Source: a virus. From it: a stretch of 64,000 nt of DNA. Below the pieces are notes generated by a model that saw only the letters and a list, made by a program, of their open reading frames with translations, was not told the origin of the DNA and did no database searches. The DNA lies in IMG/VR virus record IMGVR_UViG_3300005747_000263, positions 1 to 64,000 of that record; one strand, given 5' to 3'. This document shows positions 771-22,469 of the stretch, one piece after another; positions within the stretch are counted from its first letter, which is position 1, and the number at the start of each line of letters is the position of its first letter. The position numbers and the translations under genes are program-made.

Positions 771-776
771 CGAATC

Positions 777-2419: not shown

Positions 2420-2580
2420 GCTTGCACCTCTGCCTTGGGGCATTTGCCGAGGGCTGGCGGCTCTGAATCAATGATGCGGGTGCGTTGCTCATTGCAAGCA
2501 CCGCAAGCCCAAATGTAGAGCGCCCCGGTGGGTAGGTCAAGGTCAACATTCTCCCCGATTTGCTCCCAGGTGTGGCTCAT
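2416..2580 (-). CDS. 54-aa putative zinc-binding protein (not in ORF track)
   Basis: MSHTWEQIGENVDLDLPTGALYIWACGACNEQRTRIIDSEPPALGKCPKAEVQA*; GGTG RBS; stop overlaps the thyX ATG. Confidence 0.65.
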   Translation of the reverse strand: MSHTWEQIGENVDLDLPTGALYIWACGACNEQRTRIIDSEPPALGKCPKAEVQA

Positions 2581-2604
2581 GCTTGCACCACTCTACTAAT
2601 TAAT

Positions 2605-3457: not shown

Positions 3458-3465
3458 AGTATCAC

Positions 3466-4653: not shown

Positions 4654-4671
4654 TGTTTCATCCTTTATGTT

Positions 4672-5595: not shown

Positions 5596-5599
5596 GATA

Positions 5600-6885: not shown

Positions 6886-7519
6886 AATCTCCACCAATGT
6901 AATACCTAACATAATCGATGAATCCCATATTGTACCTACTATTAATAATAAGTTCTGGATGCTCATCTAACATGTGTAGATTTTGCCGAATATTTCTGCT
7001 TTGATAATAATCGCCCGGCGAGTATGAATTACTACTTATGTTGTTAAATAGCGTCTGGAAAGTAATTTCTTCTGGTAAATGTTTTTGCCATCCCCACCTA
7101 AGCGCATTGACAAAAAATGACGCAGGGATTTCGCGCCACTCGTAATCACGCGGCACAGTAATAAATACTTTAGTCGTATAACGTCCCACGGTAAATACAT
7201 TGAATGTTGGCATTCCGGGGATATTCTCCATCCATTCCAGAACCCTAACTAAGTTATGGAAGTCTCTCTTGCCATCTGCTTTCATTGCAAAGATTAACGT
7301 AGAATTGTCTCGCACGCGATATGTTGCAAATTCTTTACAATAAGCGTGGTCGCCGCTCCAGCCAAAAACATACGGTAAACCTCCATATCCATTATCTCTT
7401 GGTTTAATTGCATTGACTAACGAATATTTACGATTAGTAATTCTACTTAAGCGCAATAATTCAGGAACACTATCTACATTAAATTCTTTTAGATTGGGTT
7501 TATGACTCACATTTACCAT
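6845..7519 (-). CDS. hypothetical protein in the amidoligase operon
   Basis: 224 aa; shares CKEFA and NALRWG motifs with 8439-9284. Confidence 0.6.
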   Translation of the reverse strand: MVNVSHKPNLKEFNVDSVPELLRLSRITNRKYSLVNAIKPRDNGYGGLPYVFGWSGDHAYCKEFATYRVRDNSTLIFAMKADGKRDFHNLVRVLEWMENIPGMPTFNVFTVGRYTTKVFITVPRDYEWREIPASFFVNALRWGWQKHLPEEITFQTLFNNISSNSYSPGDYYQSRNIRQNLHMLDEHPELIINSRYNMGFIDYVRYYIGGDYEKSKTTNQTITV

Positions 7520-8422
7520 TTAAATCTTCCAGTTTTCAAATACATTAGTACCAAGTTTCTTGTCGGTACTAAACATTTCTGCCGAATCAAGAATAGTAGC
7601 ATATTCAGGGTAGTATTCCAGAATATCTACTACAAGATTATTGCAGTACACTTCATTGTTAGCATTGAGGGAATGTTCCAATGCGTTCCAGTCGGTCTTA
7701 TATTCTTGCTCCATTGCCATTTTCTTAACAATTTCTACGGAGTCAAACATGTATTCAACTAACTTGGGGTGTTTGTACCAGTAATTACTTTGGCTTCGAC
7801 ACTCGATGCCGTATGGTTTTAACCTGTGGGCACCGGCTTTGCCGTATAGATTCTTACGAAGCGCCGCTTCAGGAGTTTTATCTAGGAAGCCAACTGCACT
7901 TGCACCAATTAGTAATTCAAAGTGTTTACCGACACTTTGTACACCTTCGAAGGTATCGAAGAAGTTTGATTCTTTAGAACCACTTGGACTAATATGAACA
8001 TGGCCTCCGCAAGTACGGAAAGGACTTTCGGCCGCCCCTTCTGGAATTACGTTGCGAGAATTATTAAAGATATTAAAATCTGGTTCACAACCGAATACCT
8101 TACAAATGGGGTGGTCCAATTGTTCCTTACTGTATTCGAGCGCCGGAATAGTATGAATACTCATTCCTTCCTCGGCATCACTAAGCATATTCTTAGTAAT
8201 TTTAAACAAGTTAGTAGTAATATCAATTACTTCTTGTTTGGTACTGCCTGGGTTAATACTCATTTCGAGGTTAGCATTGTCTGGGAATACTAATCCGTAG
8301 CGAGTCTTAATCTTAGGTAGGCGAACTTTTTCCAATTTAGGAATAAGTTGCATGGCTTTAGGGGCGCTAATTACTTCGCCAGTTGGTCTTTTAATTACAA
8401 ATTCTGGGTCGCTTCCAAACAT
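7520..8422 (-). CDS. phiEco32-type COOH-NH2 ligase (type 2)
   Basis: FGSDPEF, DNANLE, FGCEPDFN, RTCGGHVH, R..LYGKAG.HR.KPYGIECRS.SNYW. Confidence 0.92.
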   Translation of the reverse strand: MFGSDPEFVIKRPTGEVISAPKAMQLIPKLEKVRLPKIKTRYGLVFPDNANLEMSINPGSTKQEVIDITTNLFKITKNMLSDAEEGMSIHTIPALEYSKEQLDHPICKVFGCEPDFNIFNNSRNVIPEGAAESPFRTCGGHVHISPSGSKESNFFDTFEGVQSVGKHFELLIGASAVGFLDKTPEAALRKNLYGKAGAHRLKPYGIECRSQSNYWYKHPKLVEYMFDSVEIVKKMAMEQEYKTDWNALEHSLNANNEVYCNNLVVDILEYYPEYATILDSAEMFSTDKKLGTNVFENWKI

Positions 8423-8438
8423 AATATACCTATACTAT

Positions 8439-9284
8439 TTAACAATCTCCGCAATCACAGTAATCATCATCATGACAACTTGAACAATCGCTATCACAGT
8501 CGTAAAAATCATTATATACAACCGCATCGCGCAGGTCAAAGTATGAATCGTTTGCACATTCGGTGCAAATATGCACCGAGGAAAACCTCTCTAAATGTTT
8601 TTCAATACCTACGCCTTTAATGGTATCAAATGTGCTACACTCTCCGTCTTGCAAGTAAACTTCCGCAGTATACTTGGCGTAGTTGTTATAACTTTTACTG
8701 AATGACTCGTTAAAGCCATTTACGTTTACGATTTCGCCGTCGCGCAATTCCTTATAATATTGACTCAAGTCTTTACCCCGATACTCGGGGAAGTAATAAC
8801 TTCCAAATCGAAGAATCAATGTGAGTAAATAAGTGTTAGGAACGCTTGCGATAAATAATGGATTGAATACTACAATACATAAGTCGTCACTTTCAATTCC
8901 AACATTACTGGCTTTAATGAATAATTCATCTTCGGGGAAGTTGAACCATTCCTTCATTACTTCACAGTAAGCGTTAATGTTATCTGCTAGGATTGCACCA
9001 TTCTTTGATTCGGCGCTCCTTGCTCCCATAAAGAAGTAATTACGAGTCCCATTGCGATAATGGTCGGATAAATAACCCGCCGCATAATCTCGACACTCCG
9101 ACGCGTGGTAATACTTATAAGTTTTAATGTAATGCGCAATATAAGTAGAACTGCTCGACTCGTCACTTTGAACTAATTTTAATTCTGCATCGGTCAATCC
9201 AATGACCGCATCGCGAATGTCAGGACTTAACTTACTTACAAGGTCTTCAGTAGTAATTGATTGCTTCAATAGTGTTTCTGTCAT
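8439..9284 (-). CDS. hypothetical protein with a Cys/Asp-rich C-terminal tail
   Basis: Start set to ATG 9284 (GGTGA RBS); CRDYA and LILRFG motifs; tail DCDSDCSSCHDDDYCDCGDC. Confidence 0.6.
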   Translation of the reverse strand: MTETLLKQSITTEDLVSKLSPDIRDAVIGLTDAELKLVQSDESSSSTYIAHYIKTYKYYHASECRDYAAGYLSDHYRNGTRNYFFMGARSAESKNGAILADNINAYCEVMKEWFNFPEDELFIKASNVGIESDDLCIVVFNPLFIASVPNTYLLTLILRFGSYYFPEYRGKDLSQYYKELRDGEIVNVNGFNESFSKSYNNYAKYTAEVYLQDGECSTFDTIKGVGIEKHLERFSSVHICTECANDSYFDLRDAVVYNDFYDCDSDCSSCHDDDYCDCGDC

Positions 9285-9645
9285 TCCAGTCACCAGATTC
9301 AATTAAATTATCTTCACTAACTCCGCCAAGATACAAGTAAATGTATGCAGGGCCAAGTTCGGTATCAATACTGATACGGTCATAGAAAGAGTTGTTATTA
9401 CTCCCCGGCGTATAACCTTCCAGTCCATTGATACTGCTTAATTCTTCATCATTAACCCAGTAAAGTTCCGCAACAATAGTATCACTATCTGATGCGCGCT
9501 TAATACCAGGGAAACTGAATAAAGAATACATTTTAAATCCAGGTACTTCAATAGTACTAACTGGGTCTTTACGCAAAAAGTAATTATGATTACCATTGCC
9601 TTGCCTCAATGTGCCATATACGGCAATAAGTGTTTCATTAGTCAT
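9247..9645 (-). CDS. gamma-glutamylcyclotransferase (AIG2/GGCT-like)
   Basis: VYGTLRQG.GNH, FPGI, LEGY...YDR, AYIY, IESGDW. Confidence 0.92.
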   Translation of the reverse strand: MTNETLIAVYGTLRQGNGNHNYFLRKDPVSTIEVPGFKMYSLFSFPGIKRASDSDTIVAELYWVNDEELSSINGLEGYTPGSNNNSFYDRISIDTELGPAYIYLYLGGVSEDNLIESGDWNDRNTIEAINYY

Positions 9646-9826
9646 TAACTTTTACTCCATGTACAACTTCAATGTTGATTTCTGTATTAGGGATAAGGAG
9701 AGTATTGTATAGTAAATTACGAGCAGTTTCTTCGTTAATTGATTTAACATATCCATTCTGCAATTGGTTATTAGAATCTTCGTATTCAAAGTAGAATAAC
9801 TTAAGTTTAGAATTCATCTTCATCAT
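9638..9826 (-). CDS. hypothetical protein
   Basis: Small coupled ORF. Confidence 0.5.
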   Translation of the reverse strand: MMKMNSKLKLFYFEYEDSNNQLQNGYVKSINEETARNLLYNTLLIPNTEINIEVVHGVKVND

Positions 9827-10019
9827 CTACCGTAATGGACATATTTAGTGTGATATCAAATCGGTTATGAGTAATTGCTTCATTCAAGTGGTCCTTAATT
9901 GCTTCTTTCATATCTTCGATTTTATCTCCATAATGAGTTATGGGACAATCGCTCGTTTTAGAACCAAGGCACTTGGCTTCATAATACCAATAATCAATTC
10001 CGACTGTATGTTGAACCAT
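9807..10019 (-). CDS. hypothetical protein
   Basis: Small ORF, AGGT RBS. Confidence 0.5.
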   Translation of the reverse strand: MVQHTVGIDYWYYEAKCLGSKTSDCPITHYGDKIEDMKEAIKDHLNEAITHNRFDITLNMSITVDDEDEF

Positions 10020-10027
10020 ATAATTAC

Positions 10028-10411
10028 CTATACATTTGTTTTCTTAAGAGTTTTATTATTGAATGGAATAGTGTGAACGTCGCCATCTCCCCAAGAAATC
10101 ATTACTGGTATAATTTCATTGGTCACTTGTTGTTGATACGGTACAACGGGGCCGTAAACATACCTATTATATTTCACGTTGCCGCCCATTAGTGAAATAC
10201 TTTGAATCCAACCGATGCTTTCGCCATACTTAACTTCGCCCAGTTTATTATGAGTGAATGCTTCAGTATTAAAGTGTAATGGTACATTACTGGAGATATT
10301 CTTTAATAGATTGACTTTATCGTCTTTATGGTATTCGTGTAAATCGGCGAAGTATGTTTCTTCTTGAATGCGATTACTAATCAGGCGTGTTAATTCACTT
10401 TTTGTATACAA
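10028..10411 (-). CDS. hypothetical protein
   Basis: 127 aa; GGAGG RBS before a TTG start. Confidence 0.55.
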   Translation of the reverse strand: MYTKSELTRLISNRIQEETYFADLHEYHKDDKVNLLKNISSNVPLHFNTEAFTHNKLGEVKYGESIGWIQSISLMGGNVKYNRYVYGPVVPYQQQVTNEIIPVMISWGDGDVHTIPFNNKTLKKTNV

Positions 10412-10436
10412 ATTATTTATCCTCCAACGTATTAAA

Positions 10437-10510
10437 CGGGCATACTGCGATTTGAACGCAGGTGAATCGCTTAGAAGGCGATACGGATATCCGAACTACC
10501 TCATATGCCC
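10437..10510 (-). tRNA. tRNA-Arg(UCU)
   Basis: Acceptor GGGCATA/TATGCCC; anticodon stem ATCGC/GCGAT with loop CT-TCT-AA; T-arm CTGCG-TTCAAAT-CGCAG; G18G19A20; no encoded CCA. Confidence 0.88.
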
Positions 10511-10536
10511 AAAAAGAGAGAAAAAGGTAGTATTGA

Positions 10537-10695
10537 TTATCCTTTATAATCTTTACCGCAGACGGTACAACTTACTTGACCAACGCCCACGTTCATAACG
10601 CGATTACCGGACCCATAAGTTTTATCTTGGAATTCGTTTTTGCAAGTGCAAGTTTGAACAATTGTTCCGCCTCCACTAATTTTCTTAGTTGCCAT
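10537..10695 (-). CDS. small zinc-ribbon protein
   Basis: CTC..EFQD.TYG.G.RV.N...SCTVCG; start at ATG 10695 after AAGGAAG. Confidence 0.6.
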   Translation of the reverse strand: MATKKISGGGTIVQTCTCKNEFQDKTYGSGNRVMNVGVGQVSCTVCGKDYKG

Positions 10696-10825
10696 GTTAT
10701 TCTTCCTTAATTGATTCTCGCAGCCCATTCATGGCTGCAATAGGAATGTCGAGGCCATACTTTTGTTCTAACTTCTCCATTCCCATTAGTAATTTAAATT
10801 CTTCTTCATTACTCATGTATATCAC

Positions 10826-11023
10826 TTAAAAGTTTTTATCGTAATACGTTTCAACGAGTACCATTACTTTATCGAGTTGAGGTTCACTCAAGAGTTTAAT
10901 TACATCGGGGAATAATTCCCGATGCATATCGTTCATACCGTGTACATTGTAGCCGAAATCTACTGATTCGGTAATGATTGAAATCTTTTCTTCTCTTGAT
11001 AAGTCGGGTGTTAGATTATCCAT
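10826..11023 (-). CDS. hypothetical protein
   Basis: AGGAG RBS; 65 aa. Confidence 0.55.
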   Translation of the reverse strand: MDNLTPDLSREEKISIITESVDFGYNVHGMNDMHRELFPDVIKLLSEPQLDKVMVLVETYYDKNF

Positions 11024-11290
11024 GCACCAACTCCTTTATATACTAAGATTCCAAGGAATGTTGCTACAATTACTTTTAACAGGAATACCATTGATTGACC
11101 GATAATTTCTTGTTTATTCATGGAAGATACCTGCTATTCTTAATAATTGATACGGATGCAATTATACCGATAGCACTAATTACTGCAACTCCAAACTGTT
11201 CCGTTACGATATTTAATACTAAAAGTGTGGTATTGGCAATTAAAGATACTACACCAAGAGTTAGTAGACCGAAAGTTATTCCTTTTTTAT

Positions 11291-11710
11291 TCATTTAACT
11301 AGTCTCCTCCAGAATGATTTCTTTTCACTAATTGGTGGTAGGTCTTCTTTACACTCGTCTAGTGTTGTATTGATACTATACTGTGTCCAGAATTCATCAA
11401 CGAATTTTAACATTATTAAGAAATTGCCGGTGGAAAGTTTTGCTCGCCGTTGGCCATCAAACGTTGAGAAATAAGGAGTACTATACCAAGTTTCGGGATA
11501 TAATCCTTGCATATAAAGGTGTTCATCCATGTAGTAATCATATCCCTTATCGAATAATATACCACACTTAGTGACAAGATAATCTTCACCAATGTCGGGC
11601 GTAAAACCTAAGACTTGTTCTACTTCTTTAGCAATTTCTTTGGCTTCGGTTAATTTACCTTCATTAATTTTATCGTGGACAAGTTTAATTGCTTCTTCGC
11701 AGGTTGTCAT
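11291..11710 (-). CDS. hypothetical protein
   Basis: 139 aa; ATGA coupling. Confidence 0.55.
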   Translation of the reverse strand: MTTCEEAIKLVHDKINEGKLTEAKEIAKEVEQVLGFTPDIGEDYLVTKCGILFDKGYDYYMDEHLYMQGLYPETWYSTPYFSTFDGQRRAKLSTGNFLIMLKFVDEFWTQYSINTTLDECKEDLPPISEKKSFWRRLVK

Positions 11711-12075
11711 TCGACATACTCCTTAATAATTCCCATACTCTTTGCTTGCTTTACTGCGTCGAGGAGGAACTTTGTACCTACTATTGGGATACAAATTGGA
11801 TTATAACCTGGGGTACAGAATTGTAATAAAGTTCCAGCCGTGCATTGTTTAACTAACGCTTCCCCATAATAAGTTCCGTCGTTATCCCAAGGTCCGGGTT
11901 CAACAACTGGAGTGAGAATTACTCTAACATCGTTTGGGCAATAATCGGCGCAAACTTCACTTACTAAGTCATTACCCATGTAGTCGTCATGTACAAGTAC
12001 TAATTGACCCCTCTTAGGTGAACCGCTCCGGTGTGTATACTTTTTACCGTTGATTTCGATAATATCTTCTGTCAT
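11707..12075 (-). CDS. hypothetical protein
   Basis: 122 aa; TAATG coupling, AGGAG RBS. Confidence 0.55.
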   Translation of the reverse strand: MTEDIIEINGKKYTHRSGSPKRGQLVLVHDDYMGNDLVSEVCADYCPNDVRVILTPVVEPGPWDNDGTYYGEALVKQCTAGTLLQFCTPGYNPICIPIVGTKFLLDAVKQAKSMGIIKEYVE

Positions 12076-12443
12076 TAAATTAACTCCTTGATTCTCTTAA
12101 ATAATTCACCCCAAGAACTCAAGTTCTTGTATTGTACGACGTTTGCGTCATCTTTTAATTCATCGCAATCATCAAAGAGTAAATCATATCGCACTTGTCG
12201 CTTAGAATACATATTCTGTGCTTCAGGACTACTCAATACACTAATATTGTGTAATCGGTGTGCCTTAAGATTGTAATGAATACTTCTTAGATTAGTAATG
12301 GGTCGAGCAGTTAAAATAAAACAACTTACTTCTGGTGTATCATTTAATACTCTTAGCGCTTGTAATGCCCCATGCGTCCATTTAAACTCTGTGACGGAGT
12401 TATCTCTACAAGTATCATCCCAATCTATTGCAACTCTAATCAT
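12075..12443 (-). CDS. HAD-superfamily phosphatase (nucleotidase-like, minimal)
   Basis: VAIDWDDT (motif I), ILTAR (II), K, LLFDD (IV). Confidence 0.75.
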   Translation of the reverse strand: MIRVAIDWDDTCRDNSVTEFKWTHGALQALRVLNDTPEVSCFILTARPITNLRSIHYNLKAHRLHNISVLSSPEAQNMYSKRQVRYDLLFDDCDELKDDANVVQYKNLSSWGELFKRIKELI

Positions 12444-12463
12444 ATTAAACTCTCAACTACTAG

Positions 12464-12545
12464 TGCCGGAAGTAGGATTCGAACCTACGAACCACTAAGG
12501 ACAGGTTCTTAAGACCCGCGTCGTTGGCCACTTGACTATTCCGGC
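12464..12545 (-). tRNA. tRNA-Leu(UAA)
   Basis: Acceptor GCCGGAA/TTCCGGC plus discriminator A; anticodon arm CGGGT-CT-TAA-GA-ACCTG; long variable arm; T-arm GTAGG-TTCGAAT-CCTAC. Confidence 0.93.
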
Positions 12546-12653
12546 GAGTGGGTTAATTATTCCTCGTAATGAATACACTCTAACTGACATTCATCAGTAA
12601 TAGTTCGCTTCCAGTACTCATAATAAGTGCGCTTGAAAAAACTCTTAATAAAG

Positions 12654-12887
12654 TTAATCATAGATAATTCCTGCAATGATTCCATTGCTAACAATTACTT
12701 TTCCGTAATTGCTGTCTGGAGTTGAAATGCAAATATATTGTCCATCGGGGATTCCAATCGGCGCAAGTTTACCAACTTTATAGTAATTACAATAGCAAAC
12801 AATATACCCATCAAAGTTCGTGTATGAATCATACCATTTAGTTTGCCAACTATATCCATCGTGCTCAATAGTGTCGTATAATCCCAT
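12654..12887 (-). CDS. hypothetical protein
   Basis: MGLYDT...WQTK N-terminus typical of small viral ORFs; coupled. Confidence 0.5.
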   Translation of the reverse strand: MGLYDTIEHDGYSWQTKWYDSYTNFDGYIVCYCNYYKVGKLAPIGIPDGQYICISTPDSNYGKVIVSNGIIAGIIYD

Positions 12888-13117
12888 TAGTCATCCCATC
12901 CGGGCATAATCATGTTAATCTCTGATGCAGCAATGCTAATAAGTTTAACTGCGCCGTCCTTACGTCGGTGCCTTACTTGCACCGGGCCATAATTCTTACC
13001 ATCCATGGCGCAATTTACTTCATACTCATGGAACTCGCTTGACATATTCTCAGTAATATTGAGCATAGTCAGTCGTCCAATAGTAGTATAATTGATTCGA
13101 ATATCGGCGTACAACAT
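12887..13117 (-). CDS. hypothetical protein
   Basis: Small coupled ORF. Confidence 0.5.
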   Translation of the reverse strand: MLYADIRINYTTIGRLTMLNITENMSSEFHEYEVNCAMDGKNYGPVQVRHRRKDGAVKLISIAASEINMIMPGWDD

Positions 13118-13118
13118 T

Positions 13119-13346
13119 TTACTTCACTTTCTTGTACGGATTAAAATAGCACCAAGTGTGAGTATTAAGTAAAGTTCTTAATGTTTCAATGCAGTCGTCC
13201 TTATCTTTATCGGTAGGACTAACTGCTCCACTAATTAACCAACTCTTGGTTAAGGATGAAATTAAGTGATAGGCGCGGCGTTGCCAAAAGCGAAACTTAT
13301 ACCCGCACCATAAACAATGAGTATGTTTGGGCAATTCAATTTGCAT
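13119..13346 (-). CDS. hypothetical protein (HC.WCG Zn motif)
   Basis: GAGGAAG RBS; HTHCLWCG. Confidence 0.55.
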   Translation of the reverse strand: MQIELPKHTHCLWCGYKFRFWQRRAYHLISSLTKSWLISGAVSPTDKDKDDCIETLRTLLNTHTWCYFNPYKKVK

Positions 13347-13433
13347 ATCTTAATCTTCCTCATCGCCTGTGATGAAAGGGATAATGTCAATGACTGGTAC
13401 TTTATTCATAATAAGTATACTCCTGATAATAAT

Positions 13434-13506
13434 TGGGGGCGTAGGGATTCCAACCCTAACTTAATTACAAGCGAAGTGCTATACCAAGCCGCGTTTGGTG
13501 GCCCCC
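13434..13506 (-). ncRNA. degenerate tRNA-like element (tRNA-Thr(UGU)-like)
   Basis: GGGGGC/GCCCCC plus A acceptor; T-arm TAGGG-TTGGAAT-CCCTA; GGTATAGCA D-loop remnant; CT-TGT-AA loop with an imperfect stem; variable loop almost absent. Confidence 0.55.
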
Positions 13507-13509
13507 GTA

Positions 13510-14015
13510 AGGAAATGAAAATAGAGTTTTCTCTCAACTATTGTTATAGCGCTGTTGAGAATATAGGATTACTCTATAAACCTAAGTCAAATAATATACG
13601 TTGCATCTTCCCGATGCTAACTATACTGCATTTTGTGTACCATGTTAATAGTTTAATACCCTTTAACAATATAACGCTTTGCTATCTTTGGTAAAAAGAT
13701 GCCACTCTTAATACTTTATACTCGGTAGCCCCCGAGTCTCAAACACACTTAAATAGTGTGTGGAGAGTGAATAATTGGCGCAAGCGGCTAACTTGACTTA
13801 GGCTGATAACAAAGCGCCTAACTTTGTGTCCGTATCTCAATTAAATAACCCTAGCCAGGACTTTTAAATTTAATCAGACCAATCATTTCATTATATACTC
13901 TTTTATGAGCAATTATCATCTCACTTAAAGAGTATAATACTTAACACGGTTTGACTCAATGTTAAGCAGAAAAGTGCCCCGACTCTAATCCAGTAATGGC
14001 GGTCGAGGACTTGGG
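13510..14015 (-). ncRNA. putative large structured (pseudoknotted) ncRNA
   Basis: Crossing long-range helices 13805-13818/13673-13686 and 13792-13804/13579-13591 with G-U pairs on the minus strand; at least 7 further local hairpins. Confidence 0.6.
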
Positions 14016-14048
14016 TTTTTATTCGTAATACTTCACAGTATTCTTCTT

Positions 14049-14504
14049 TTAACTGTCGCGGACAGATTGAAGGGCACCCATGTATTCTTGGAACGAATCC
14101 ATAGAATCAAAAGTGTCACCTCCGCTCATAAAGCCGAAAACTTCGCCCTTGACATCAATAGTCGCACCGGGCGTTCCATCGGCTTTAAGATACAATTCCG
14201 CCGGTAGGGGAATTCCATCTTCCGTTGTTTCTTGACGCAATCGACGAATACTTACTTCCGTGTATTCACCTTTCGTTGGGTGCATGACCTGAGTCTTTTG
14301 CACCAAACGAATGTGGTCGTTTCCGCGAATAAGGCGTTCGGAGAGAACATTACGTTCAATCTTTTGCCGTCCACGGGCTTTCTTTTCCAGATTAACCGCT
14401 TGGAATTTACTATTATGAATAAATCCCAGAACGGTTCCGCTGGAATCACGGACGATAACATTGTTATCATCAATGATTGCGCCTTCGGGTAGGTTAGAAA
14501 CCAT
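14049..14504 (-). CDS. hypothetical protein, possibly nucleic-acid binding
   Basis: 151 aa; GGAGG RBS; flanked by structured non-coding sequence. Confidence 0.7.
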   Translation of the reverse strand: MVSNLPEGAIIDDNNVIVRDSSGTVLGFIHNSKFQAVNLEKKARGRQKIERNVLSERLIRGNDHIRLVQKTQVMHPTKGEYTEVSIRRLRQETTEDGIPLPAELYLKADGTPGATIDVKGEVFGFMSGGDTFDSMDSFQEYMGALQSVRDS

Positions 14505-14508
14505 TTTA

Positions 14509-14633
14509 ATCCTCCATTATCCTTAATAAGAATACTCATGCCGTTAAATACCAAAACAACAACAAACCATGAACATCTACAAACAATACCTTTCCAGGTG
14601 ACATGAGTAAACTTATTAAGTAGGATAGAGGAC
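14509..14633 (-). promoter_or_regulatory. RBS-sequestering long 5' hairpin
   Basis: GTCCTC/GAGGAT, TATCC/GGATA, TTAATAAG/CTTATTAA and TACTCATGTC/GGCATGAGTA pair over the GGAGG RBS of the 14504 gene. Confidence 0.65.
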
Positions 14634-14639
14634 ATAAAG

Positions 14640-15350
14640 AGAACGATAAGTAGAAACTTACCGTTTAATCCCTTTATGCACGGATGAAGTCAGAGCAAAG
14701 ACTGTTATTCTTAAACCCCATACGCCGGGTTTATCCGCTTACCTAAAGGTCCTTTTAATTAGGTAAGAAACGTTTTCAATTTTTATTCACTTAAAGCGCT
14801 ACTCCTCGCTTGGTTATAATTAACAAGCAGAACTTTTAGTAAGCAAACGCCAATTTACTTTATTTCTTACCCTCATTAGTGTTATGTAAGGGGAATACAT
14901 CCCTGCGGCCAAACTAACGGTACTTATTTACCTTATCGCCGTTGCGTATTTTACGCCTCTAAAATTATCTTCTTACTATACTGAAACATAAAATCCATAA
15001 AATGGTTAAGATTTCGTAATCACTTTTATATTCCCGACAAGAGAGAATGTCACTTATCACGGAGGCGAATGTATCATTTTTATAGTCCACTACTTAAATG
15101 TAATGGACATATGTGGCTGTCGATGCACACAATAAAACAAATACCGTACCTTAAGGTATAGTCCAGCAAGGCTGTCCAGATACTTGAATTACATATCGCG
15201 TGGCTTACACGCCTTAACCGAAATACACGGGAAGGGCGACACCTATCCCAAAAATGAACCCCGAGGGATGCATAAATGAAATAGTTATCGCGCCGCCCAT
15301 CCCGCATATCGCAGATAAGACGCCACAAGACACCCTATTGGCCGGGATGC
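14640..15350 (-). ncRNA. putative large multibranch structured RNA
   Basis: Nested long-range helices GGCGATAAG/CTTATCGTT, TACCGTT/AACGGTA and GCAGGGATG/CATCCGTGC enclose hairpins CTTACCTAA/TTAGGTAAG, TAAACCC/GGGTTTA and GCTTG/CAAGC; more stems at 15085-15350. Confidence 0.55.
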
Positions 15351-15352
15351 CG

Positions 15353-15413
15353 AAAGGTATATGAACCCCTACGTTAGGGTTATATAGGGGGCCGGGAACC
15401 TACATAAGGGTTG
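15353..15413 (-). promoter_or_regulatory. cluster of TATA-like elements
   Basis: AACCCTTATGTAG, CCCTATATAACC and GGTTCATATACC on the minus strand just upstream of the structured region. Confidence 0.4.
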
Positions 15414-15772
15414 CGCCACTAAATACCTTAACTCGGCCGCCATACATACAAGTAATACGCACTCAGTATCTATACAGTATAATCATAACACCATAATGAT
15501 ACCCTTAAACGCAACTCATGCTCACTTAAAGAGTAATTACTTCTACTCGGTACGAGTAAAGTAAGTATAATAAATCGAGGATGTAAAGTAAATACAATAA
15601 ATTTTAGATTGTAAAGTAAATAACTTAAATGAATACTAATAAAAAAAGACACTCCCCGTATAATTATTCATGTTAGGTAAAGTGGGTAGAGGAGTAATTA
15701 CCTTAGACTTTAGTCACAGGGAGTAATTACTATTGTTGGGATGAGGGTTTTTGGGTTAAACACCGAAAACCT

Positions 15773-15880
15773 CAGAATCGCTTTCTAAGGCACTTTCTTT
15801 ACCCAAAAGGTAAGGATATACCACTATGTGCGGTAAAGTGTCTAAAAAGGCCGTTTCTGGGCTTCTGAGAGCATTTTAGA
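15773..15880. repeat. dispersed ~100-bp element, copy 1 (gyrase-site-like)
   Basis: CAGAATCGCTTTCTAAG, with GGGCTTCTGAG starting 80 nt after the CGC. Confidence 0.55.
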
Positions 15881-15918
15881 GTAAGGGGGATAAGGTAAGA
15901 TTGCACTAATGCGCTGTT

Positions 15919-16929
15919 TTAGTCCTTTTTGGCCGCGATTTGAACGTATTTTTGGACCGGAGCCTTCTTGGAAAGAAGTTTAGTCAAGTCTGTCTTAGGC
16001 AGACTAACACTTTCTCCTTCGGGAAGGTTTCCAATTGTTGGAATACGTCCATCAGCAGTCTTGAACACTTTACTGTTCTTCCGAGGACCATAAACATCAT
16101 AACTCATGCGGTTGAAAAGAGACTTAACCTCTTTCTTGGCAAGATGACTAACAGCCTTACTGTTGTAATCATCTTCTTCAATGTGCTTAATCATATTATC
16201 AATGACCAAGCCATTAAAGACAGGTAGATTCGTTTGGACCCCGTTAATAACAGCATTACAGTACCGGAGTTTATTGGCATAATTCAAGAAGTCTGCCTTA
16301 TCCATGTCTTTCAAGTTGGCAGGGAAATAACCATCTTTAATGGCTTTCTCCATTGTAAGTCCCAAAACATGATGGGCCACCAAGTCAAGAATCTTAGACA
16401 CGAAGTAAGGCGAATAGTGACTTACACCGAGTCCGGCACCGTAAAGTTCTTTGTTCCCTGGAGCGTCTGTAAGAGAAGAAGCCCAGGTCACGCCGTGAAT
16501 CGTATTAAAACGAACGTTGGCGTGTAAATCGCGCTTAGCGACACGGACATTGGACTTAACAGACTTATAGCCGGTTTCATCCTTAAACTTAGACAAGAAG
16601 CGCTTCTTAGCGACATAATCGCTAACAGTCTCGATGACCATGTTTTTCTTATCCATGACACCCGCCTTGATTTCTTCAATAACTTTCAGGTTTTGAGCCA
16701 TCAAGTAAGAAGCACAAAGGACCACAGCGTTTTCATACAACCTTTTCAGCGAGGCCGCACTTTGTTGCAGTTTTCCGGCGCTGGTGATTTTAATCTTAGG
16801 TTTGGATTGCTCCACCCAAAGATTAACATCTTTTTCGTGCGCCTTGTTCAGTTCAGCAAAAATGCGAGCATCGCGTGTGTTTTTGACATTAACCTTGTCG
16901 GTAATGTTCTTAAGTTTGTCGTTTTGCAT
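15919..16929 (-). CDS. hypothetical Lys-rich protein (probable early gene)
   Basis: 336 aa; AGGAG RBS; own TATA box and 5' hairpin ATAAGCAC/GTGCTTAT. Confidence 0.75.
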   Translation of the reverse strand: MQNDKLKNITDKVNVKNTRDARIFAELNKAHEKDVNLWVEQSKPKIKITSAGKLQQSAASLKRLYENAVVLCASYLMAQNLKVIEEIKAGVMDKKNMVIETVSDYVAKKRFLSKFKDETGYKSVKSNVRVAKRDLHANVRFNTIHGVTWASSLTDAPGNKELYGAGLGVSHYSPYFVSKILDLVAHHVLGLTMEKAIKDGYFPANLKDMDKADFLNYANKLRYCNAVINGVQTNLPVFNGLVIDNMIKHIEEDDYNSKAVSHLAKKEVKSLFNRMSYDVYGPRKNSKVFKTADGRIPTIGNLPEGESVSLPKTDLTKLLSKKAPVQKYVQIAAKKD

Positions 16930-17045
16930 AATCTAATCTCCTTATTTTTGGTAGAGATTTGAATTAAACTATACGGGGAGCGTATCAATCATAAGCACCT
17001 ATTCGCGCCCAAAATGCGTTATTGTGCTTATGGTGGGGGAGGGTA

Positions 17046-17062
17046 AGGTATAAAGGTTAAGG
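17046..17062 (-). promoter_or_regulatory. archaeal-type TATA promoter
   Basis: CCTTAACCTTTATACCT ~120 nt upstream of ATG 16929. Confidence 0.55.
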
Positions 17063-17214
17063 TTGGGCCATCGCGTAAAGCGGAATACCTGCGGCGCGTC
17101 CTGCGCTTATTCGTCTTAATATGGAGTATACCTTGCAACTAGATAAGGCTGTCGATGTCTAATCCGCTTACCCAGAATCGCCGCCGATAACCCGAATAAC
17201 CCAATTTCGCGGCC

Positions 17215-18160
17215 CATATGAGTAATTACTCCTGGTATATACTAATATAATACTATACACATACAGTATACACTAACATAATTACTCCCGTGTCCGTATA
17301 CTAATCAATATAATACTATACAATAAGTAATTATACATAATCAAAGTATACCTGTAATATATATAATTATACATAAGAAATAATTAACTTTGATTGGGGT
17401 AATTATACGCGAATCGACAGGTATAATTGACTTTTGAGGTAAATTTAGCACCACAAAGACATACTTATGTCCACCCCCCAAGACAATTACTCCTTACCCC
17501 CCAAGGTAATTTCTCCTTATCTGTCCCTCCAATCCAAGATAATTTATTCTTACTCGGAGTAAAGTTTAAAAAACTTTACGACTCGCAAAGATTTTTAATC
17601 TTTGCTCGATACGAGTTAGGAGTAATTACCTTTGCTCGGCGACTCTATTGTATTAATAATAAATTTTGGGGCAAGAGTAATTACCTTTGCTCGGCAGGGT
17701 GTATTTAAGATAAATAAGCGCTACTCGGCAGGAGGGTATTTAATTTAAATAATGAATCCCCAAGCAAAAGTAATTACCTTACCCCCCTAAGGGGGCAGGA
17801 AGTTTTATGATTAAATGACCGAATTGGTCGGTCAGGAGGAATTACCTTTGGTTCAGACGGTCAGAATCGCCGTCTAAGCCACTTCGAGCCTTCAACCCTC
17901 CACGGGATAGCCACCGTGCCGTCGAAGGCCACACGAGGCGCTTTAGGGCCTTTACGTTGTACTCGCCCCGCAAGAGTTAATCGAAATACTCTCTACTCGC
18001 CGGGGATAAGGTATTTATAATATATCGGGCGGATTTTTTAAAAAAAATAAATTTAAAATTTATTATAAAAAAAATAAATTTTCACATCGTAAGTAAAATA
18101 AATAAATCCTGATACCAAAAAAATTTAACCAATAAAATTTATTGGTTAAGAATAATAGAT
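17215..18160. other. AT-rich repeat-laden control region (candidate replication origin or terminus)
   Basis: Multiple GAGTAATTAC motifs, CTTTGCTCG x3, AATATAATACTATACAC x2, very AT-rich 18030-18150 with palindrome TTAACCAATAA-AAT-TTATTGGTTAA. Confidence 0.5.
17861..17955. repeat. dispersed ~100-bp element, copy 2
   Basis: CAGAATCGCCGTCTAAG, with GGGCCTTTAC starting 78 nt after the CGC. Confidence 0.55.
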
Positions 18161-18212
18161 AGGGGGTCGGCCATGGGATCCCATGGGGAAAAGAAGAAGG
18201 GGGAAAATGGGC

Positions 18213-18386
18213 CTAAGATTCTTCAAAGGTCCCTTGGACCGACAGTTCCCCGCCACACCACTTGACGCCGTAGGCGAAGCGGTGGCGGTGGAACCGCCGG
18301 CCGCCGGGATTCTGAGCCGCGCCAGACAAGACGGGTACGGAAGGATGGAGGTTGCACGTTGCGACGGTTGTCATTTGGGCCGCCAT
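18213..18386 (-). CDS. hypothetical 57-aa protein (GC-rich cluster)
   Basis: ATG just after the stop of 18388-18753; followed by a pyrimidine tract. Confidence 0.45.
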   Translation of the reverse strand: MAAQMTTVATCNLHPSVPVLSGAAQNPGGRRFHRHRFAYGVKWCGGELSVQGTFEES

Positions 18387-18387
18387 T

Positions 18388-18753
18388 TTACACAACCCTT
18401 CCGTCGTCAAGAAGGAGCCCGCAACGGATAGAATCGGTAGGAACCGATACCCATCCATCGGTCGTCACACTTCGCACTTCAACCCATCCCTTAACGAAAG
18501 ATTCACCGGGACGGATGAACCCATAATCGGGATGAACCAAGGAGCCGGTACGACCGACCACTTGGGACAATTCAACACCCAAGTTGGCCAGTTGGTCCGG
18601 CACTTTTGCCGCTTCTTCCTGTGCCCACTTGATTTCGTCGCGCATGAGGGCGTAAACCTCCTTTTGGGTCAAGCCTTCTTGACGGGCAACCCACTTCAAT
18701 TCGTAGTGTTTGCGCAGTAGTTTGTAGATTTCGCGTTTGTGCATATTGTTCAA
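18388..18753 (-). CDS. hypothetical protein (GC-rich cluster)
   Basis: 121 aa; GGTGA/AGGA RBS. Confidence 0.65.
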   Translation of the reverse strand: MNNMHKREIYKLLRKHYELKWVARQEGLTQKEVYALMRDEIKWAQEEAAKVPDQLANLGVELSQVVGRTGSLVHPDYGFIRPGESFVKGWVEVRSVTTDGWVSVPTDSIRCGLLLDDGRVV

Positions 18754-18828
18754 ATCCTGGTCACCGCGCCTTTCCGCGCCTGTCGCGACCGTATGGAGGG
18801 AAGAAGGGGAAAAGGGACCGGAGTCGGT

Positions 18829-19170
18829 CTAAGCGTCCAAGGACAGGCTAAGGAGTGCGTAAGCCTGTTCCTTAGTGTGTCCAGCGTCTTGAAGGGCCGC
18901 GATAGCCACTTCGTGCTGAGCCGCTTTGCGGCTTTCAATGGCCGCTTCTTGAGCGCGGACAAACCGGCCCGCTTCTTCAATCCCGGCACCGAACGCTTCT
19001 TGGGCCGCCATGAGGAACACGTCTTGAGCCTGTTCCATCAAGTCGTTCGACTTGGAGTAGTCGGCCGCCTTGAAAGCGTCCGAAGCACGGCGAAGAAGGC
19101 CCTTGGCGGTTTCAACAGCCGTGTTTAGGCCGGAGGCGGTGGTTTGTTGTGGTGGTTGGTATTTTGCCAT
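18829..19170 (-). CDS. hypothetical Ala-rich helical protein (GC-rich cluster, probable pre-early gene)
   Basis: 113 aa; first minus-strand gene after a TATA box. Confidence 0.7.
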   Translation of the reverse strand: MAKYQPPQQTTASGLNTAVETAKGLLRRASDAFKAADYSKSNDLMEQAQDVFLMAAQEAFGAGIEEAGRFVRAQEAAIESRKAAQHEVAIAALQDAGHTKEQAYALLSLSLDA

Positions 19171-19330: not shown

Positions 19331-19420
19331 GAACCCGTCACTCTGAATCGCCGGACCCGGCGCCGCCGTGGTAAGGTCCATATGCGCCGTCGGGAAAATT
19401 GGAATTTTTTTAGAATCAAA

Positions 19421-19553
19421 TAATTACTCCTGTATCTAAAGATAGAGATAATTACCCCTGTGTCCAGGGACTAAGATAATTACTCCTGTGTCTAAAGACT
19501 AAGTTAATTACCCCTATGTCCTAGGACGAAGTTAATTACTTCTGTGTCCAGTG
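19421..19553. repeat. 28-bp tandem repeat (4 full copies plus 1 partial)
   Basis: Consensus TAATTACYCCTRTRTCYNNRGAYNRAGW; no unique spacers. Confidence 0.9.
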
Positions 19554-20633: not shown

Positions 20634-22469
20634 GTGGGTGGTAAGTTGTATGCGGCGGTTCATGATGGCTTCATGTTTGCGAGGCAAGTCAGCGATGCAC
20701 TTCATAAACTGGATGCCGTTAATGATGTAACCATGAAGGGGCGCATTAATCGCCTCAAGTTTTTGAATGAGTTGCCCGTCGAAGTTAGGGAGGCGCTCCC
20801 TAGCGATGTGCAGCTTGGTTTGGAATTGAATCCTGACTTGGATACGATGTTCCTTCACCCGGAGGACCCCATGCGGGGCATTGTCGTGTCTTTTGTGGCG
20901 CGATACATTGGTAATCCGTGGAGTAACACGGAAGCGTTTGAACTGAATGACCTTCAATTAAAGATTCTTGTTTATGCACTTAGCAGTCGTTCCCTTGGTG
21001 TGCTTGCCCCCCGTGGTGTCGGAAAGTCAGTTGCTCTTGCACTCGCTGCCCTCATTTGGTGTTTCTTCTGTGCCATTGGGGAAGACGCGTTCATTATTGC
21101 TCCTACCACGAATCAAACCGACAAAGTGTTTGCATACATTACCGACTTTATTAAAGTCGGAAAGAATAACTTCTTAATGGATGGGGACCCTAACATTGGG
21201 TACGAGGGCATTGGTAGTATTCGTTTTGGTCAGAAACCCATGATTCACTGGCGACAGGGGTCGAGGTTGAGACCGGCGTGTGCTTCGCGCAACAATAAGG
21301 GTGAGACGATACGGGGGCAGCAGCCTACGTTTGCGTTGCTGGATGAATCCAGTTACATTCTCGATGACATTTACACGAAGACGTTGAAGAGCGGTTTGGT
21401 TAGTAATCGGAGCGACCACGAGATTCCAATCATTGAATCTGGGACGCCTGACGCGAAGAATCACTTCTACGACTTGTTCCATAACCCGAAGATGTACAAG
21501 GAGTACATGAAGATTCACTTCGATTACGAGGACGGGATTAGGGCGGGGCGGTATACCCGCGAGAACATTGAGAAGATTATTAACGAGACTCCCGGCGGGA
21601 AGGAATCCATTGAGTTCCAATCGGAGTACATGTGTAAGTTCCCAGAGGGTGCCATGTCGTTCTTTAAGAATCTCGAATACACTTTTAGCGGGGAACACAT
21701 TGAGTCGGCACCCCTACCCGGGGTAACATACGTTGCTGGTCTCGACTTGGGTCAGAAGCAGGACAGTACCGTGTTAACTATTGGTCGGTATAGTATTGAG
21801 GATGATGGGGACCACATTGATGTGGTTTATATTCTCGAATTGAATCCGGTTCAAGAATTGACGTATCCTCAACAGTATGCATTGATTTGTGATGAATTGA
21901 ATCGGTGGCGGGTTCAGTCGTGCTGGGTTGACTTTACTGGACCCGGTATTCCCATTTATCAGTCATTGGAGACACTGGTTAGGTCTAGTTGTCCTACCGT
22001 GACGTTTATTCCTTTCAGTTTCCAGTCGAATACTAAGTATCCGAACTTCGAGAAACTGCGTTTGTACTTGCAGAATCGTCCTACGCCGCGCATCCGGTAC
22101 CCGAAACTGGATGATAATCGCGTGATGAATCACCCTAAGTTTAAGGAATTCCAGAAAGCGAAGGGTGAATTCGTGGATATTGTTCAGAAGCGCACGAATA
22201 GTGCGAATGAAAAGAACAAGTGGAAGGTTGAGCCGGCGCGTTCCCGTGGTCACGACGACTACGTAGCGAGTTGCATCTGCCTTTGTCAGGCGATTAATGA
22301 GTCGTATTCTGGTGGCGGAGTGGCAAATGCTGTCGAAAAACAGCGCAATGTTGCACAAAGAAAGGTTTCAAGTGCCTCTGCGACGACGGCCGGGCGCGCT
22401 TTAGGCATCCGAGGAGGCAATAGTATAAATAGGGGAAGAGGGCATAGTAATATATGGAGGAAAGTATAA
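20634..22469 (+). CDS. terL: terminase large subunit
   Basis: Walker A APRGVGKS, Walker B LLDE, SGTP, RNase H-like GLDLG..QD, VDFTG.G, HDD. Confidence 0.95.
   Translation: MGGKLYAAVHDGFMFARQVSDALHKLDAVNDVTMKGRINRLKFLNELPVEVREALPSDVQLGLELNPDLDTMFLHPEDPMRGIVVSFVARYIGNPWSNTEAFELNDLQLKILVYALSSRSLGVLAPRGVGKSVALALAALIWCFFCAIGEDAFIIAPTTNQTDKVFAYITDFIKVGKNNFLMDGDPNIGYEGIGSIRFGQKPMIHWRQGSRLRPACASRNNKGETIRGQQPTFALLDESSYILDDIYTKTLKSGLVSNRSDHEIPIIESGTPDAKNHFYDLFHNPKMYKEYMKIHFDYEDGIRAGRYTRENIEKIINETPGGKESIEFQSEYMCKFPEGAMSFFKNLEYTFSGEHIESAPLPGVTYVAGLDLGQKQDSTVLTIGRYSIEDDGDHIDVVYILELNPVQELTYPQQYALICDELNRWRVQSCWVDFTGPGIPIYQSLETLVRSSCPTVTFIPFSFQSNTKYPNFEKLRLYLQNRPTPRIRYPKLDDNRVMNHPKFKEFQKAKGEFVDIVQKRTNSANEKNKWKVEPARSRGHDDYVASCICLCQAINESYSGGGVANAVEKQRNVAQRKVSSASATTAGRALGIRGGNSINRGRGHSNIWRKV

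What the first reader, a model, noticed from the sequence alone, without database searches (positions are those of the whole stretch)
13350..15415. Possible RNA-protein module: promoter, ~850-nt structured leader, one 151-aa gene, ~500-nt structured RNA, tRNA-like element
In a genome that is otherwise densely coding, about 1.5 kb of base-paired non-coding sequence flanks one unknown protein whose RBS is itself sequestered. The arrangement suggests a self-contained system, such as an RNP in which the protein binds the RNAs and autoregulates, or an RNA decoy/anti-defence locus. This is my best candidate for an undescribed system; the function is pure inference.
Basis: inference. Interest (0 to 1): 0.8.

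Follow-up and report, generated by a model that had tools for sequence, protein, structure and literature searches.

The report
Long hairpin-rich leader around orphan phage gene
In a very divergent 74-kb phage, a real but orphan 151-residue gene sits in genuinely non-coding DNA whose RNA would form the strongest hairpin in the genome and a second hairpin that hides the gene's ribosome-binding site; this looks like translational control of an early gene, and no test of an RNA-protein machine was possible.

Summary
Partly confirmed. The window is bases 1-64000 of a 74,011-bp virus record. Stretches 13347-14048 and 14505-15918 are truly non-coding: no ORFs under four genetic codes, no period-3 signal, stops even in all six frames, no Pfam/PHROG remnants. 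The 151-aa gene is real, with one 41%-identical homologue among 1.84 billion representatives.

"Base-paired" is only partly special. Coding stretches of the same genome fold as far below their shuffles (z to -8.2) as the leader (z -8.0). Two minus-strand hairpins do stand out:
- H1 (15196-15338): -71 kcal/mol, z -7.3, top hairpin genome-wide, weak on the plus strand.
- H2 (14505-14638): z -5.3, pairs the Shine-Dalgarno with an anti-SD.

The 0.7-kb downstream stretch is not above background. It appears to start its own unit, with a duplicated operator block and a sigma-70-like promoter. The "tRNA-like" element is sub-threshold.

No Rfam family matches and the protein's fold is unknown. No relative covering the locus was reachable, so co-occurrence and covariation are untested.

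Best reading (0.4): a long early-mRNA leader with a processing-type hairpin and RBS occlusion. The RNP or decoy idea stays possible (about 0.1-0.15).

The parts
15417..15741 (-). Cluster of four copies or variants of the recurrent box AAGGTAATTACTCC (palindromic core GAGTAATTACTC). It is probably a regulator-binding (operator) cluster upstream of the leader.
   Evidence: Motif count is 32 against 4.9 expected. Families D1, D2 and D5. The alignment shows the same orientation relative to the downstream genes at 13.9, 15.4-15.7, 17.2-17.8 and 19.4-19.55 kb.
15556..15622 (-). 27-nt tandem repeat (2.4 copies) that contains the best minus-strand sigma-70-like promoter candidate, TTTACT-17-TATACT (15592->15564). 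The inferred transcript start is near 15557.
   Evidence: TRF; promoter scan, 9 of 12 matches. Function is inferred, not shown.
14505..15557 (-). ORF-free leader ('RNA A', about 1.05 kb) upstream of the 151-aa gene.
   Evidence: No ORFs under four genetic codes; no period-3 signal; no protein-family remnants; GC island of 50-55% at 15160-15440; z -8.0 on the minus strand and -4.0 on the plus strand, but coding controls reach -8.2.
15196..15338 (-). H1: a 143-nt extended hairpin of about 44-48 bp, roughly a quarter of them G-U pairs. It is the strongest local hairpin in the 74-kb genome.
   Evidence: -71.1 kcal/mol, z -7.29, 0 of 200 shuffles as good, MFE frequency 0.56; the plus strand gives only -35.5 kcal/mol, z -2.0. 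Helix score 66 against shuffle mean 39 and maximum 56 (shuffles run with a stricter minimum span of 60 nt). Rank 1 of all windows on both strands.
14905..15440 (-). Predicted domain of about 535 nt, closed by a 13+8-bp long-range helix (15440-15420 with 14926-14905) and containing H1.
   Evidence: MFE helix list. This is a prediction only; its significance was not established separately.
14505..14638 (-). H2: a 134-nt hairpin that pairs the Shine-Dalgarno GGAGG of the 151-aa gene with an anti-SD about 110 nt upstream. It has a U/G-rich apical loop.
   Evidence: Inverted repeat of 31 nt, 81% complementary; -41.7 kcal/mol, z -5.27, 0 of 200 shuffles; 33 of 38 pairs, score 47, about the 97th-98th percentile genome-wide.
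14049..14504 (-). Gene for a 151-aa orphan protein with acidic ends and a basic middle (residues 39-95, pI 10.6).
   Evidence: ATG start with GGAGG 7 nt upstream. One homologue at 41% identity over the full length. No Pfam, PHROG, NCBIfam or PADLOC family. pI values.
13890..13949 (-). Second copy of the roughly 35-nt operator block (15-mer CTCACTTAAAGAGTA identical to 15521-15535) overlapping the sigma-70-like promoter ATGATA-18-TATAAT (13919->13890).
   Evidence: blastn-short; promoter scan, 10 of 12 matches; sequence reading.
13347..13889 (-). ORF-free stretch ('RNA B'). It is probably the 5' leader of the next leftward operon rather than a 3' partner of the 151-aa gene.
   Evidence: Non-coding. 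z is -4.2 on both strands, within the coding background. The best helix score, 37, is reached by 5 of 60 shuffles.
13434..13506 (-). Degenerate tRNA-like cloverleaf: 6-bp acceptor stem, T-arm GGG-UUGGAAU-CCC, no proper anticodon arm. It may be a dead tRNA gene or a processing signal.
   Evidence: Fold z -0.74. Not called by ARAGORN at default, -i or -ps settings or by Rfam. Called only at the -ps80 threshold as tRNA-Ala(cgc), with two other dubious calls.
13350..13409 (-). Possible 19-codon small ORF with AGGAG 10 nt upstream of its ATG. Its stop lies 4 nt before the ATG of the 75-aa gene (13346).
   Evidence: Read directly from the sequence; untested.

Best explanation
The locus is part of a 5-kb, ORF-poor, leftward-transcribed early/control zone (13.3-18.35 kb) of a very divergent tailed phage. 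Clusters of a palindromic regulator box (GAGTAATTACTC) divide this zone into units. One unit starts near 15.56-15.74 kb and makes a leader of about 1.05 kb followed by the orphan 151-aa gene.

Two RNA elements in that leader are under evident structural selection on the minus strand. H1 is a very stable hairpin of about 45 bp, of the size and shape that double-strand-specific RNases (RNase III type) cut in phage early transcripts. H2 locks the gene's Shine-Dalgarno sequence in a duplex of about 30 bp. Translation of the 151-aa protein is therefore off by default. It would be switched on by cleavage or melting of the 5' arm of H2, through processing, a trans-acting factor, or conceivably the protein itself.

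The 0.7 kb downstream is most likely the leader of the next operon (small ORFs, then tRNA-Leu). It has its own operator block and promoter and holds a decayed tRNA-like element.

Shown: the non-coding status, the reality of the gene, the exceptional stability and strand-specificity of H1, and the SD/anti-SD pairing of H2. Inferred: the transcription starts, the processing, the direction of regulation and the unit boundaries.
For: - Non-coding status.
- Gene conserved over its full length with P0002.
- H1: z -7.3, MFE frequency 0.56, twice as stable as its complement, rank 1 in the genome.
- H2: z -5.3, with SD paired to anti-SD.
- The regulator box recurs in one orientation relative to downstream genes in front of each unit and of the late operon.
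- A relative's terminase-upstream region (L084) carries a different palindrome, also as an upstream array, as expected for operator sites.
- A duplicated operator block and a 10/12 sigma-70-like promoter sit at the head of stretch B.
- Domains typical of bacterial proteins (Big_1, TSP3_bac), together with Shine-Dalgarno use, fit a bacterial host.
- From my own knowledge, not tested here: RNase III sites in T7 early RNA, and RNase III relief of RBS occlusion in the lambda N leader, are the precedents.
Against: There are no transcript data, so starts, ends and processing are all inferred. No covariation test was possible because no homologous locus was reachable. About 1 kb is very long for a leader whose only needs would be H1 and H2, and about 700 nt of it has no assigned role. 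The promoter candidates are modest (9-10 of 12 matches), and the host, and so its promoter type, is unknown. The hairpin after the gene's stop codon is not a convincing intrinsic terminator, so B could still be co-transcribed with the gene.
Confidence: 0.4

Rival explanations
1. One reading: a self-contained RNA-protein module. RNA A and/or RNA B are stable structured RNAs bound by the 151-aa protein, which also autoregulates through the occluded RBS.
For: One conserved orphan gene sits between ORF-free stretches. The RBS is occluded, as in many autoregulated RNA-binding proteins. H1 is strand-specific. The protein has a conserved basic middle segment with invariant R46, K48, R51, R57, R88 and R90.
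Against: Overall fold stability is no better than that of coding RNA. B is not above background and seems to have its own promoter and operator. The protein is acidic overall (pI 5.6) and matches no RNA-binding family. The ORF-poor zone extends beyond the proposed module.
Confidence: 0.12
2. One or more independent large non-coding RNAs of a new family, analogous to GOLLD or ROOL (large phage or prophage RNAs found next to tRNA genes), or an RNA decoy against host defence, working without the 151-aa protein.
For: A GC-rich island (50-55% against about 35% flanks) lies at 15160-15440, as for RNA genes in AT-rich genomes. H1 and a predicted domain of about 535 nt closed by a 21-bp helix. tRNA-Leu lies 0.8 kb away and tRNA-Arg 2.8 kb away, and there is a tRNA-like relic. 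GOLLD and ROOL are reported from phages (papers listed); that they lie near tRNA genes is my own knowledge.
Against: No Rfam family matches, even at E<=5. There are no homologues, so no covariation evidence. Outside H1 and H2 the structure signal equals the coding background. No convincing terminator defines a separate RNA.
Confidence: 0.15
3. Mostly DNA-level or neutral sequence: a control/origin zone (operators, iterons, AT-rich unwinding tracts) plus spacer left by gene loss. H1 and H2 would be the only functional RNA features, or incidental.
For: Dense regulator boxes, 23-28-nt arrays and extreme AT tracts (18030-18160, 17200-17420) lie in the same zone. Most of A and B is not distinguishable from background in folding.
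Against: A (14505-15400) and B (13347-13890) themselves carry none of the repeats. No coding relics are detectable. H1's 2-fold strand asymmetry, with about 25% G-U pairs, argues for selection on RNA, not DNA. Phage genomes rarely keep kilobases of neutral DNA (general knowledge).
Confidence: 0.25

Closest known systems
RNase III-processed early leaders of coliphages (lambda N leader; T7 early-region R sites). This comparison rests on my own knowledge, not on a tool result.
   Same: Long imperfect hairpins sit in an early, operator-controlled leader. A hairpin occludes the ribosome-binding site of the first gene, so processing or melting would activate translation.
   Different: The leader is about 1 kb long, much longer than those leaders as I recall them. 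There is no sequence similarity, cleavage is untested, and the host and its RNases are unknown.
GOLLD and ROOL large ornate RNAs (Rfam families; papers listed)
   Same: ORF-free, GC-enriched sequence in a phage genome, close to tRNA genes.
   Different: No covariance-model match even at E<=5. There is no family of homologues, no covariation, and no evidence of a discrete stable RNA.
tRNA genes, tRNA pseudogenes and tRNA-like processing signals in phage tRNA clusters
   Same: Acceptor-like stem, T-arm-like hairpin (UUGGAAU loop), same strand, and less than 1 kb from a bona fide tRNA-Leu.
   Different: There is no anticodon arm. It falls below the detection thresholds of ARAGORN and the Rfam tRNA model, and its fold is not better than shuffles.
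PC4 / Whirly / PUR-like single-strand nucleic-acid binders
   Same: Small, predicted beta-rich protein with a C-terminal helix. One low-scoring ESM-Atlas structural neighbour carries DUF3276; that this family is PUR-like is my recollection, not a tool result.
   Different: No Pfam or PDB sequence match. The models are too poor (pLDDT 37 and 46) for a fold comparison, and Foldseek found nothing at E<=0.001.

Membership tests
tRNA | Cloverleaf with a 7-bp acceptor stem, D arm, a 5-bp anticodon stem with a 7-nt loop, and a T arm; detected by ARAGORN or Rfam RF00005 | tested here: not met
   Not called by ARAGORN (default, -i, -ps) or by Rfam at E<=5. It appears only at the -ps80 threshold, with two other dubious calls. 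There is no anticodon arm in the MFE fold.
GOLLD / ROOL / other Rfam large ncRNAs | Match to the family covariance model | tested here: not met
   cmscan at gathering thresholds over the whole window, and at E<=5 over 12400-18800, found only tRNA-Leu and chance-level hits.
GOLLD / ROOL / other Rfam large ncRNAs | Conserved structure supported by covariation among homologues | not testable with these tools
   No homologous locus was found. Logan contigs could not be fetched.
Group I / group II introns and self-cleaving ribozymes | Match to the Rfam intron or ribozyme models; interrupted host gene | tested here: not met
   No Rfam match at E<=5. The flanking ORFs are separate complete genes.
RBS-occluding translational operator in a phage early leader | Shine-Dalgarno sequence base-paired in a stable local structure, beyond chance | tested here: met
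   H2 is -41.7 kcal/mol with z -5.3 and 0 of 200 shuffles as stable; AUGGAGG pairs with CCUCUAU.
RBS-occluding translational operator in a phage early leader | Demonstrated relief of occlusion (RNase III cleavage, factor binding) | not testable with these tools
   This needs in vitro cleavage, toeprinting or reporter assays.
PC4 / OB-like nucleic-acid-binding protein | Sequence-profile or fold match to the family | tested here: inconclusive
   There were no Pfam, NCBIfam or PDB sequence hits. AF2 pLDDT was 37 and 46. Foldseek found nothing at E<=0.001. The Atlas neighbours have TM<=0.52 and mixed folds.
Recoded (alternative genetic code) coding region | Long ORFs appear when a stop codon is reassigned | tested here: not met
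   TAG=Q, TGA=W and TAA=Q open no credible ORFs in 13347-18350. There is no period-3 signal.

The most novel reading that the evidence does not exclude
The roughly 0.9-kb minus-strand RNA from about 15560 to 14640 is a discrete, stable, large structured RNA of a new family carried by a deep-branching phage lineage. It would contain H1 and a domain of about 535 nt closed by a 21-bp helix. It would act either together with the adjacent conserved orphan protein, as a viral RNP, or as an RNA decoy against a host RNA-sensing defence. The occluded RBS would couple protein synthesis to the state of the RNA.
Probability: 0.12. Interest if true: 0.75.

Novelty: new member of a known kind. Interest (0 to 1): 0.35.

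Why it matters
If the conservative reading holds, this is one more case of translational gating by RNA structure in a phage early region. Its interest is that it comes from a lineage with almost no relatives: the closest phage-database terminases are about 25% identical. The leader is also unusually long.

The more useful result is methodological. In this genome, MFE z-scores as low as -8 also occur in ordinary coding RNA, so "structured" claims for the ORF-free stretches need a genome-internal control. Only H1 and H2 survive that control.

If the less likely reading is right (a stable large RNA, with or without the orphan protein), it would add a new large viral ncRNA, a class with few members whose functions are still unknown.

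Tried and rejected
- Alternative genetic codes (table 4, TAG=Q, TAA=Q): no ORFs open in the zone.
- Decayed genes: stop-to-stop frames hit nothing in Pfam or PHROGs, and there is no period-3 signal.
- Known RNA families: Rfam at gathering thresholds and at E<=5 gave only tRNA-Leu.
- Phage database: megablast and blastn of 13000-18500 found no match. tblastn of the 151-aa protein found none.
- Relatives of the 151-aa protein: none in IMG/VR, JGI metagenomes or GTDB genomes. The word-indexed search found only the protein itself. The full HMMER scan found one homologue, on a 948-nt Logan contig.
- The 336-aa neighbour is an orphan.
- Terminase route to relatives: six homologues at 49-56% identity, all on Logan contigs. 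IMG/VR hits are at most 33% identical. One JGI contig, L084 (52% identity), ends 1.4 kb upstream of the terminase and does not reach the locus. GTDB genomes gave none.
- tblastn and nhmmer of the proteins and the ORF-free stretches against all 160 fetched loci found nothing.
- Exact 18-mer of the tRNA-like T arm in IMG/VR: none.
- Sequencing runs: none was listed and no RNA holder was listed.
- Protein structure: AF2 single-sequence pLDDT 37, two-sequence pLDDT 46. Foldseek against PDB gave nothing at E<=0.001. Atlas neighbours are weak and mixed. The PDB profile search gave nothing.
- NCBIfam and PADLOC: nothing.
- Phage-encoded RNA polymerase, as an explanation of the repeated box being a promoter: no Pfam evidence in the large ORFs.
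- The tRNA-like element as a recent copy of the phage's own tRNAs: the alignment shows no close likeness.
Full report
CONTEXT. The window is bases 1-64000 of a 74,011-bp IMG/VR virus record. Its 'terminal repeat' is only 52 bp, so it is probably a circularly closed assembly. Genes run leftward from about 19.2 kb to 1 and rightward from 19.65 kb, where the terminase (20634-22469), portal, capsid and tail genes lie. tRNA-Arg (10436-10511) and tRNA-Leu (12463-12545) are on the minus strand.

The phage is very divergent. The 13000-18500 stretch has no DNA match in 50,697 phage records, and the best terminase matches there are about 25% identical. Domains typical of bacterial proteins (Big_1, TSP3_bac), a phiEco32-like ligase set and general use of GGAGG Shine-Dalgarno sites point to a bacterial rather than an archaeal host. 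This is not proven.

The ORF-free status is solid. Stretches 13347-14048, 14505-15918 and also 16930-18350 have no ORF of 90 aa or more under table 11, table 4, TAG=Q or TAA=Q. They are the three largest gaps in the genome. They lack the period-3 signal of coding DNA (1.2-2.6 against 7-18), and stops are spread evenly over all six frames. Their longest stop-to-stop frames hit nothing in Pfam or PHROGs.

The 151-aa ORF is a real gene. A full HMMER scan of 1.84 billion representatives found one homologue, P0002 (153 aa, 41% identity, E 1.7e-20). It aligns end to end, with 61 invariant positions.

IS IT 'BASE-PAIRED' BEYOND CHANCE?
Taken alone the numbers look impressive: z -8.0 for 14505-15470(-) and z -4.0 for 13347-14048(-). 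The genome-internal control removes most of this. Three 966-nt coding stretches gave z -8.2, -6.2 and -2.9. Twenty-eight 420-nt coding segments averaged z -2.3 (sd 2.0, minimum -7.3), and the leftward early genes averaged about -3.8. Segment by segment, 14641-15000 gives z -2.1, 13510-14048 gives -4.2 on both strands, and 15421-15918 gives -2.7. None of these is unusual for this genome.

Long helices do distinguish the locus. A Smith-Waterman helix scan gave a top score of 66 for 15333-15290 / 15242-15200 on the minus strand. Dinucleotide shuffles of the same 966 nt averaged 39 (sd 4.8, maximum 56), although they were run with a stricter minimum span (60 nt against 8), and coding controls topped out at 33-37. 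Scanned over the whole 74 kb on both strands, this hairpin (H1) ranks first. Folded alone (15196-15338, minus strand) it is -71.1 kcal/mol, z -7.3, with 0 of 200 shuffles as good, and the MFE structure holds 56% of the ensemble. The complementary strand reaches only -35.5 kcal/mol (z -2.0). About a quarter of its pairs are G-U. This is a signature of selection on the RNA of the gene-sense strand, and it lies in a GC island (50-55% against about 35% flanks).

The second outlier is H2 (14505-14638, minus strand). It has 33 of 38 pairs, -41.7 kcal/mol and z -5.3. In H2, AUGGAGG (the Shine-Dalgarno sequence, 7 nt before the AUG) pairs with CCUCUAU about 110 nt upstream.

A 13+8-bp long-range helix (15440-15420 with 14926-14905) closes a domain of about 535 nt in the MFE fold. 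I could not establish its significance separately.

THE OTHER CLAIMED PARTS.
The 'tRNA-like element' (13434-13506, minus strand) does draw a cloverleaf with a T-arm-like hairpin. However, it has no anticodon arm, and its fold is no better than shuffles (z -0.7). Neither Rfam at E<=5 nor ARAGORN at default, intron or pseudogene settings calls it. Only ARAGORN's 80% threshold does, alongside two dubious calls. It is not a recent copy of the phage's tRNAs. A dead tRNA gene or a processing signal are both possible.

The best minus-strand candidate upstream of the leader is TTTACT-17-TATACT at 15592->15564, inside a 27-nt tandem repeat.

HOW THE ZONE IS ORGANISED.
A box with the palindromic core GAGTAATTACTC (consensus AAGGTAATTACTCC in the direction of the downstream genes) occurs 32 times at up to one mismatch, against 4.9 expected. 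It is concentrated at 13.93, 15.42-15.74, 17.2-17.86 and 19.41-19.55 kb (the last a 28-bp array in front of the late operon) and at the 57.6-57.8 kb convergence point. A 52%-identical terminase relative (L084) has a different palindrome, CATTGATTCAATG, repeated upstream of its late genes. That is what operator sites co-evolving with their regulator would look like. No phage RNA polymerase was detected.

The head of stretch B carries a second copy of a roughly 35-nt operator block, with a 15-mer identical to 15521-15535. This block overlaps a 10/12 sigma-70-like promoter, ATGATA-18-TATAAT, at 13919->13890. So B is more simply read as the leader of the next leftward operon than as a 3' RNA partner of the 151-aa gene. 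That operon would comprise a possible 19-codon ORF at 13409-13350 with an AGGAG, then the 75-aa gene at 13346, then further small genes and tRNA-Leu. The hairpins just after the gene's stop codon are not a convincing terminator, so co-transcription is not excluded.

THE PROTEIN.
It matches no Pfam, PHROG, NCBIfam or PADLOC family, and a PDB profile search found nothing. AlphaFold2 gave pLDDT 37 with a single sequence and 46 with two sequences. The Foldseek result (nothing at E<=0.001) and the weak, mixed ESM-Atlas neighbours therefore say nothing about a PC4 or OB fold. The protein is acidic overall (pI 5.6) with a basic, arginine-conserving middle third (residues 39-95, pI 10.6). That is compatible with nucleic-acid binding but is not evidence for it.

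COMPARATIVE EVIDENCE: NOT OBTAINABLE HERE.
The protein's only homologue sits on a 948-nt Logan contig. Six terminase relatives (49-56% identity) are also on Logan contigs, up to 19.8 kb long. Searches of IMG/VR, JGI metagenomes and GTDB genomes with proteins, alignments and a DNA pattern produced no locus covering the region. No sequencing run was listed.

VERDICT.
The best-supported mechanism (confidence about 0.4) is a long leader of an operator-controlled early transcript. The gene's translation is gated by RBS occlusion (H2). An exceptionally stable hairpin (H1) serves as a processing, stability or factor-binding element. The precedents I know are the RNase III-processed lambda N and T7 early leaders (my own knowledge, not tested here).

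The finding is real as an oddity: 3.5 kb of non-coding DNA within 5 kb of a compact phage genome, plus the genome's strongest RNA hairpin. The evidence for an 'undescribed system' is thin, and the headline claim of 1.5 kb of special base-pairing does not survive the internal control. Interest 0.35. Novelty: new member of a known kind.

Noticed in passing
window 13926-13949, 15417-15741, 17220-17860, 19413-19550, 57619-57768: A palindromic box, GAGTAATTACTC (consensus AAGGTAATTACTCC), occurs 32 times against 4.9 expected. It lies in clusters that always face the downstream genes, and it forms a 28-bp (or 56-bp) tandem array in front of the late operon. It is probably the operator of a phage regulator. 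A 52%-identical relative (L084 70-190) has a different palindrome, CATTGATTCAATG, also repeated upstream of its late genes.
   Followed up: partly
window 16930-18350: A second 1.4-kb ORF-free stretch lies upstream of another orphan gene (336 aa, 15919-16929, pI 9.6). It has 23-nt repeats, many operator boxes and extreme AT tracts (17200-17420 at 27% GC; 18030-18160). It is a candidate origin/control region.
   Followed up: partly
window 1-17000, minus-strand coding regions: Ordinary coding RNA of the leftward early genes folds far below its dinucleotide shuffles. Ten 420-nt segments average z of about -3.8, with -7.3 at 6100 and -6.4 at 800, and a 966-nt stretch at 5800-6765 gives z -8.2. This genome-wide excess of predicted mRNA structure is unexplained.
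   Followed up: partly
window 15652-15662 (+) and 16970-16980 (-): Exact 11-mer CTCCCCGTATA lies in inverted orientation on either side of the 336-aa gene, each copy followed by a TATAAT- or TATAGT-like sequence. These may be convergent or divergent promoter-like or terminator-associated elements. The motif is not enriched elsewhere in the window.
   Followed up: partly
window 15772-15795 and 17861-17884: A 24-nt direct repeat, TCAGAATCGC..TCTAAG.CACTT (88% identical), has copies 2,089 bp apart, bracketing the 336-aa gene and its upstream region. A third weaker copy lies at 18891-18916.
   Followed up: no
window 13350-13409 (-): A possible 19-codon ORF (MNKVPVIDIIPFITGDEED) has AGGAG 10 nt upstream of its ATG. 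It ends 4 nt before the ATG of the 75-aa gene, so it may be a leader peptide or a small gene.
   Followed up: no
window 3466-9645 and 28000-34000: A phiEco32-like COOH-NH2 ligase / RimK ATP-grasp / GGACT gene set lies in the early region. The structural genes at 28-34 kb have 55-57% GC against 36-40% in the early genes, a strong compositional split within one genome.
   Followed up: no
G000 1-52 and 73960-74011: The record's 'direct terminal repeat' is only 52 bp. This is more consistent with a circular or permuted assembly overlap than with true phage terminal repeats.
   Followed up: partly
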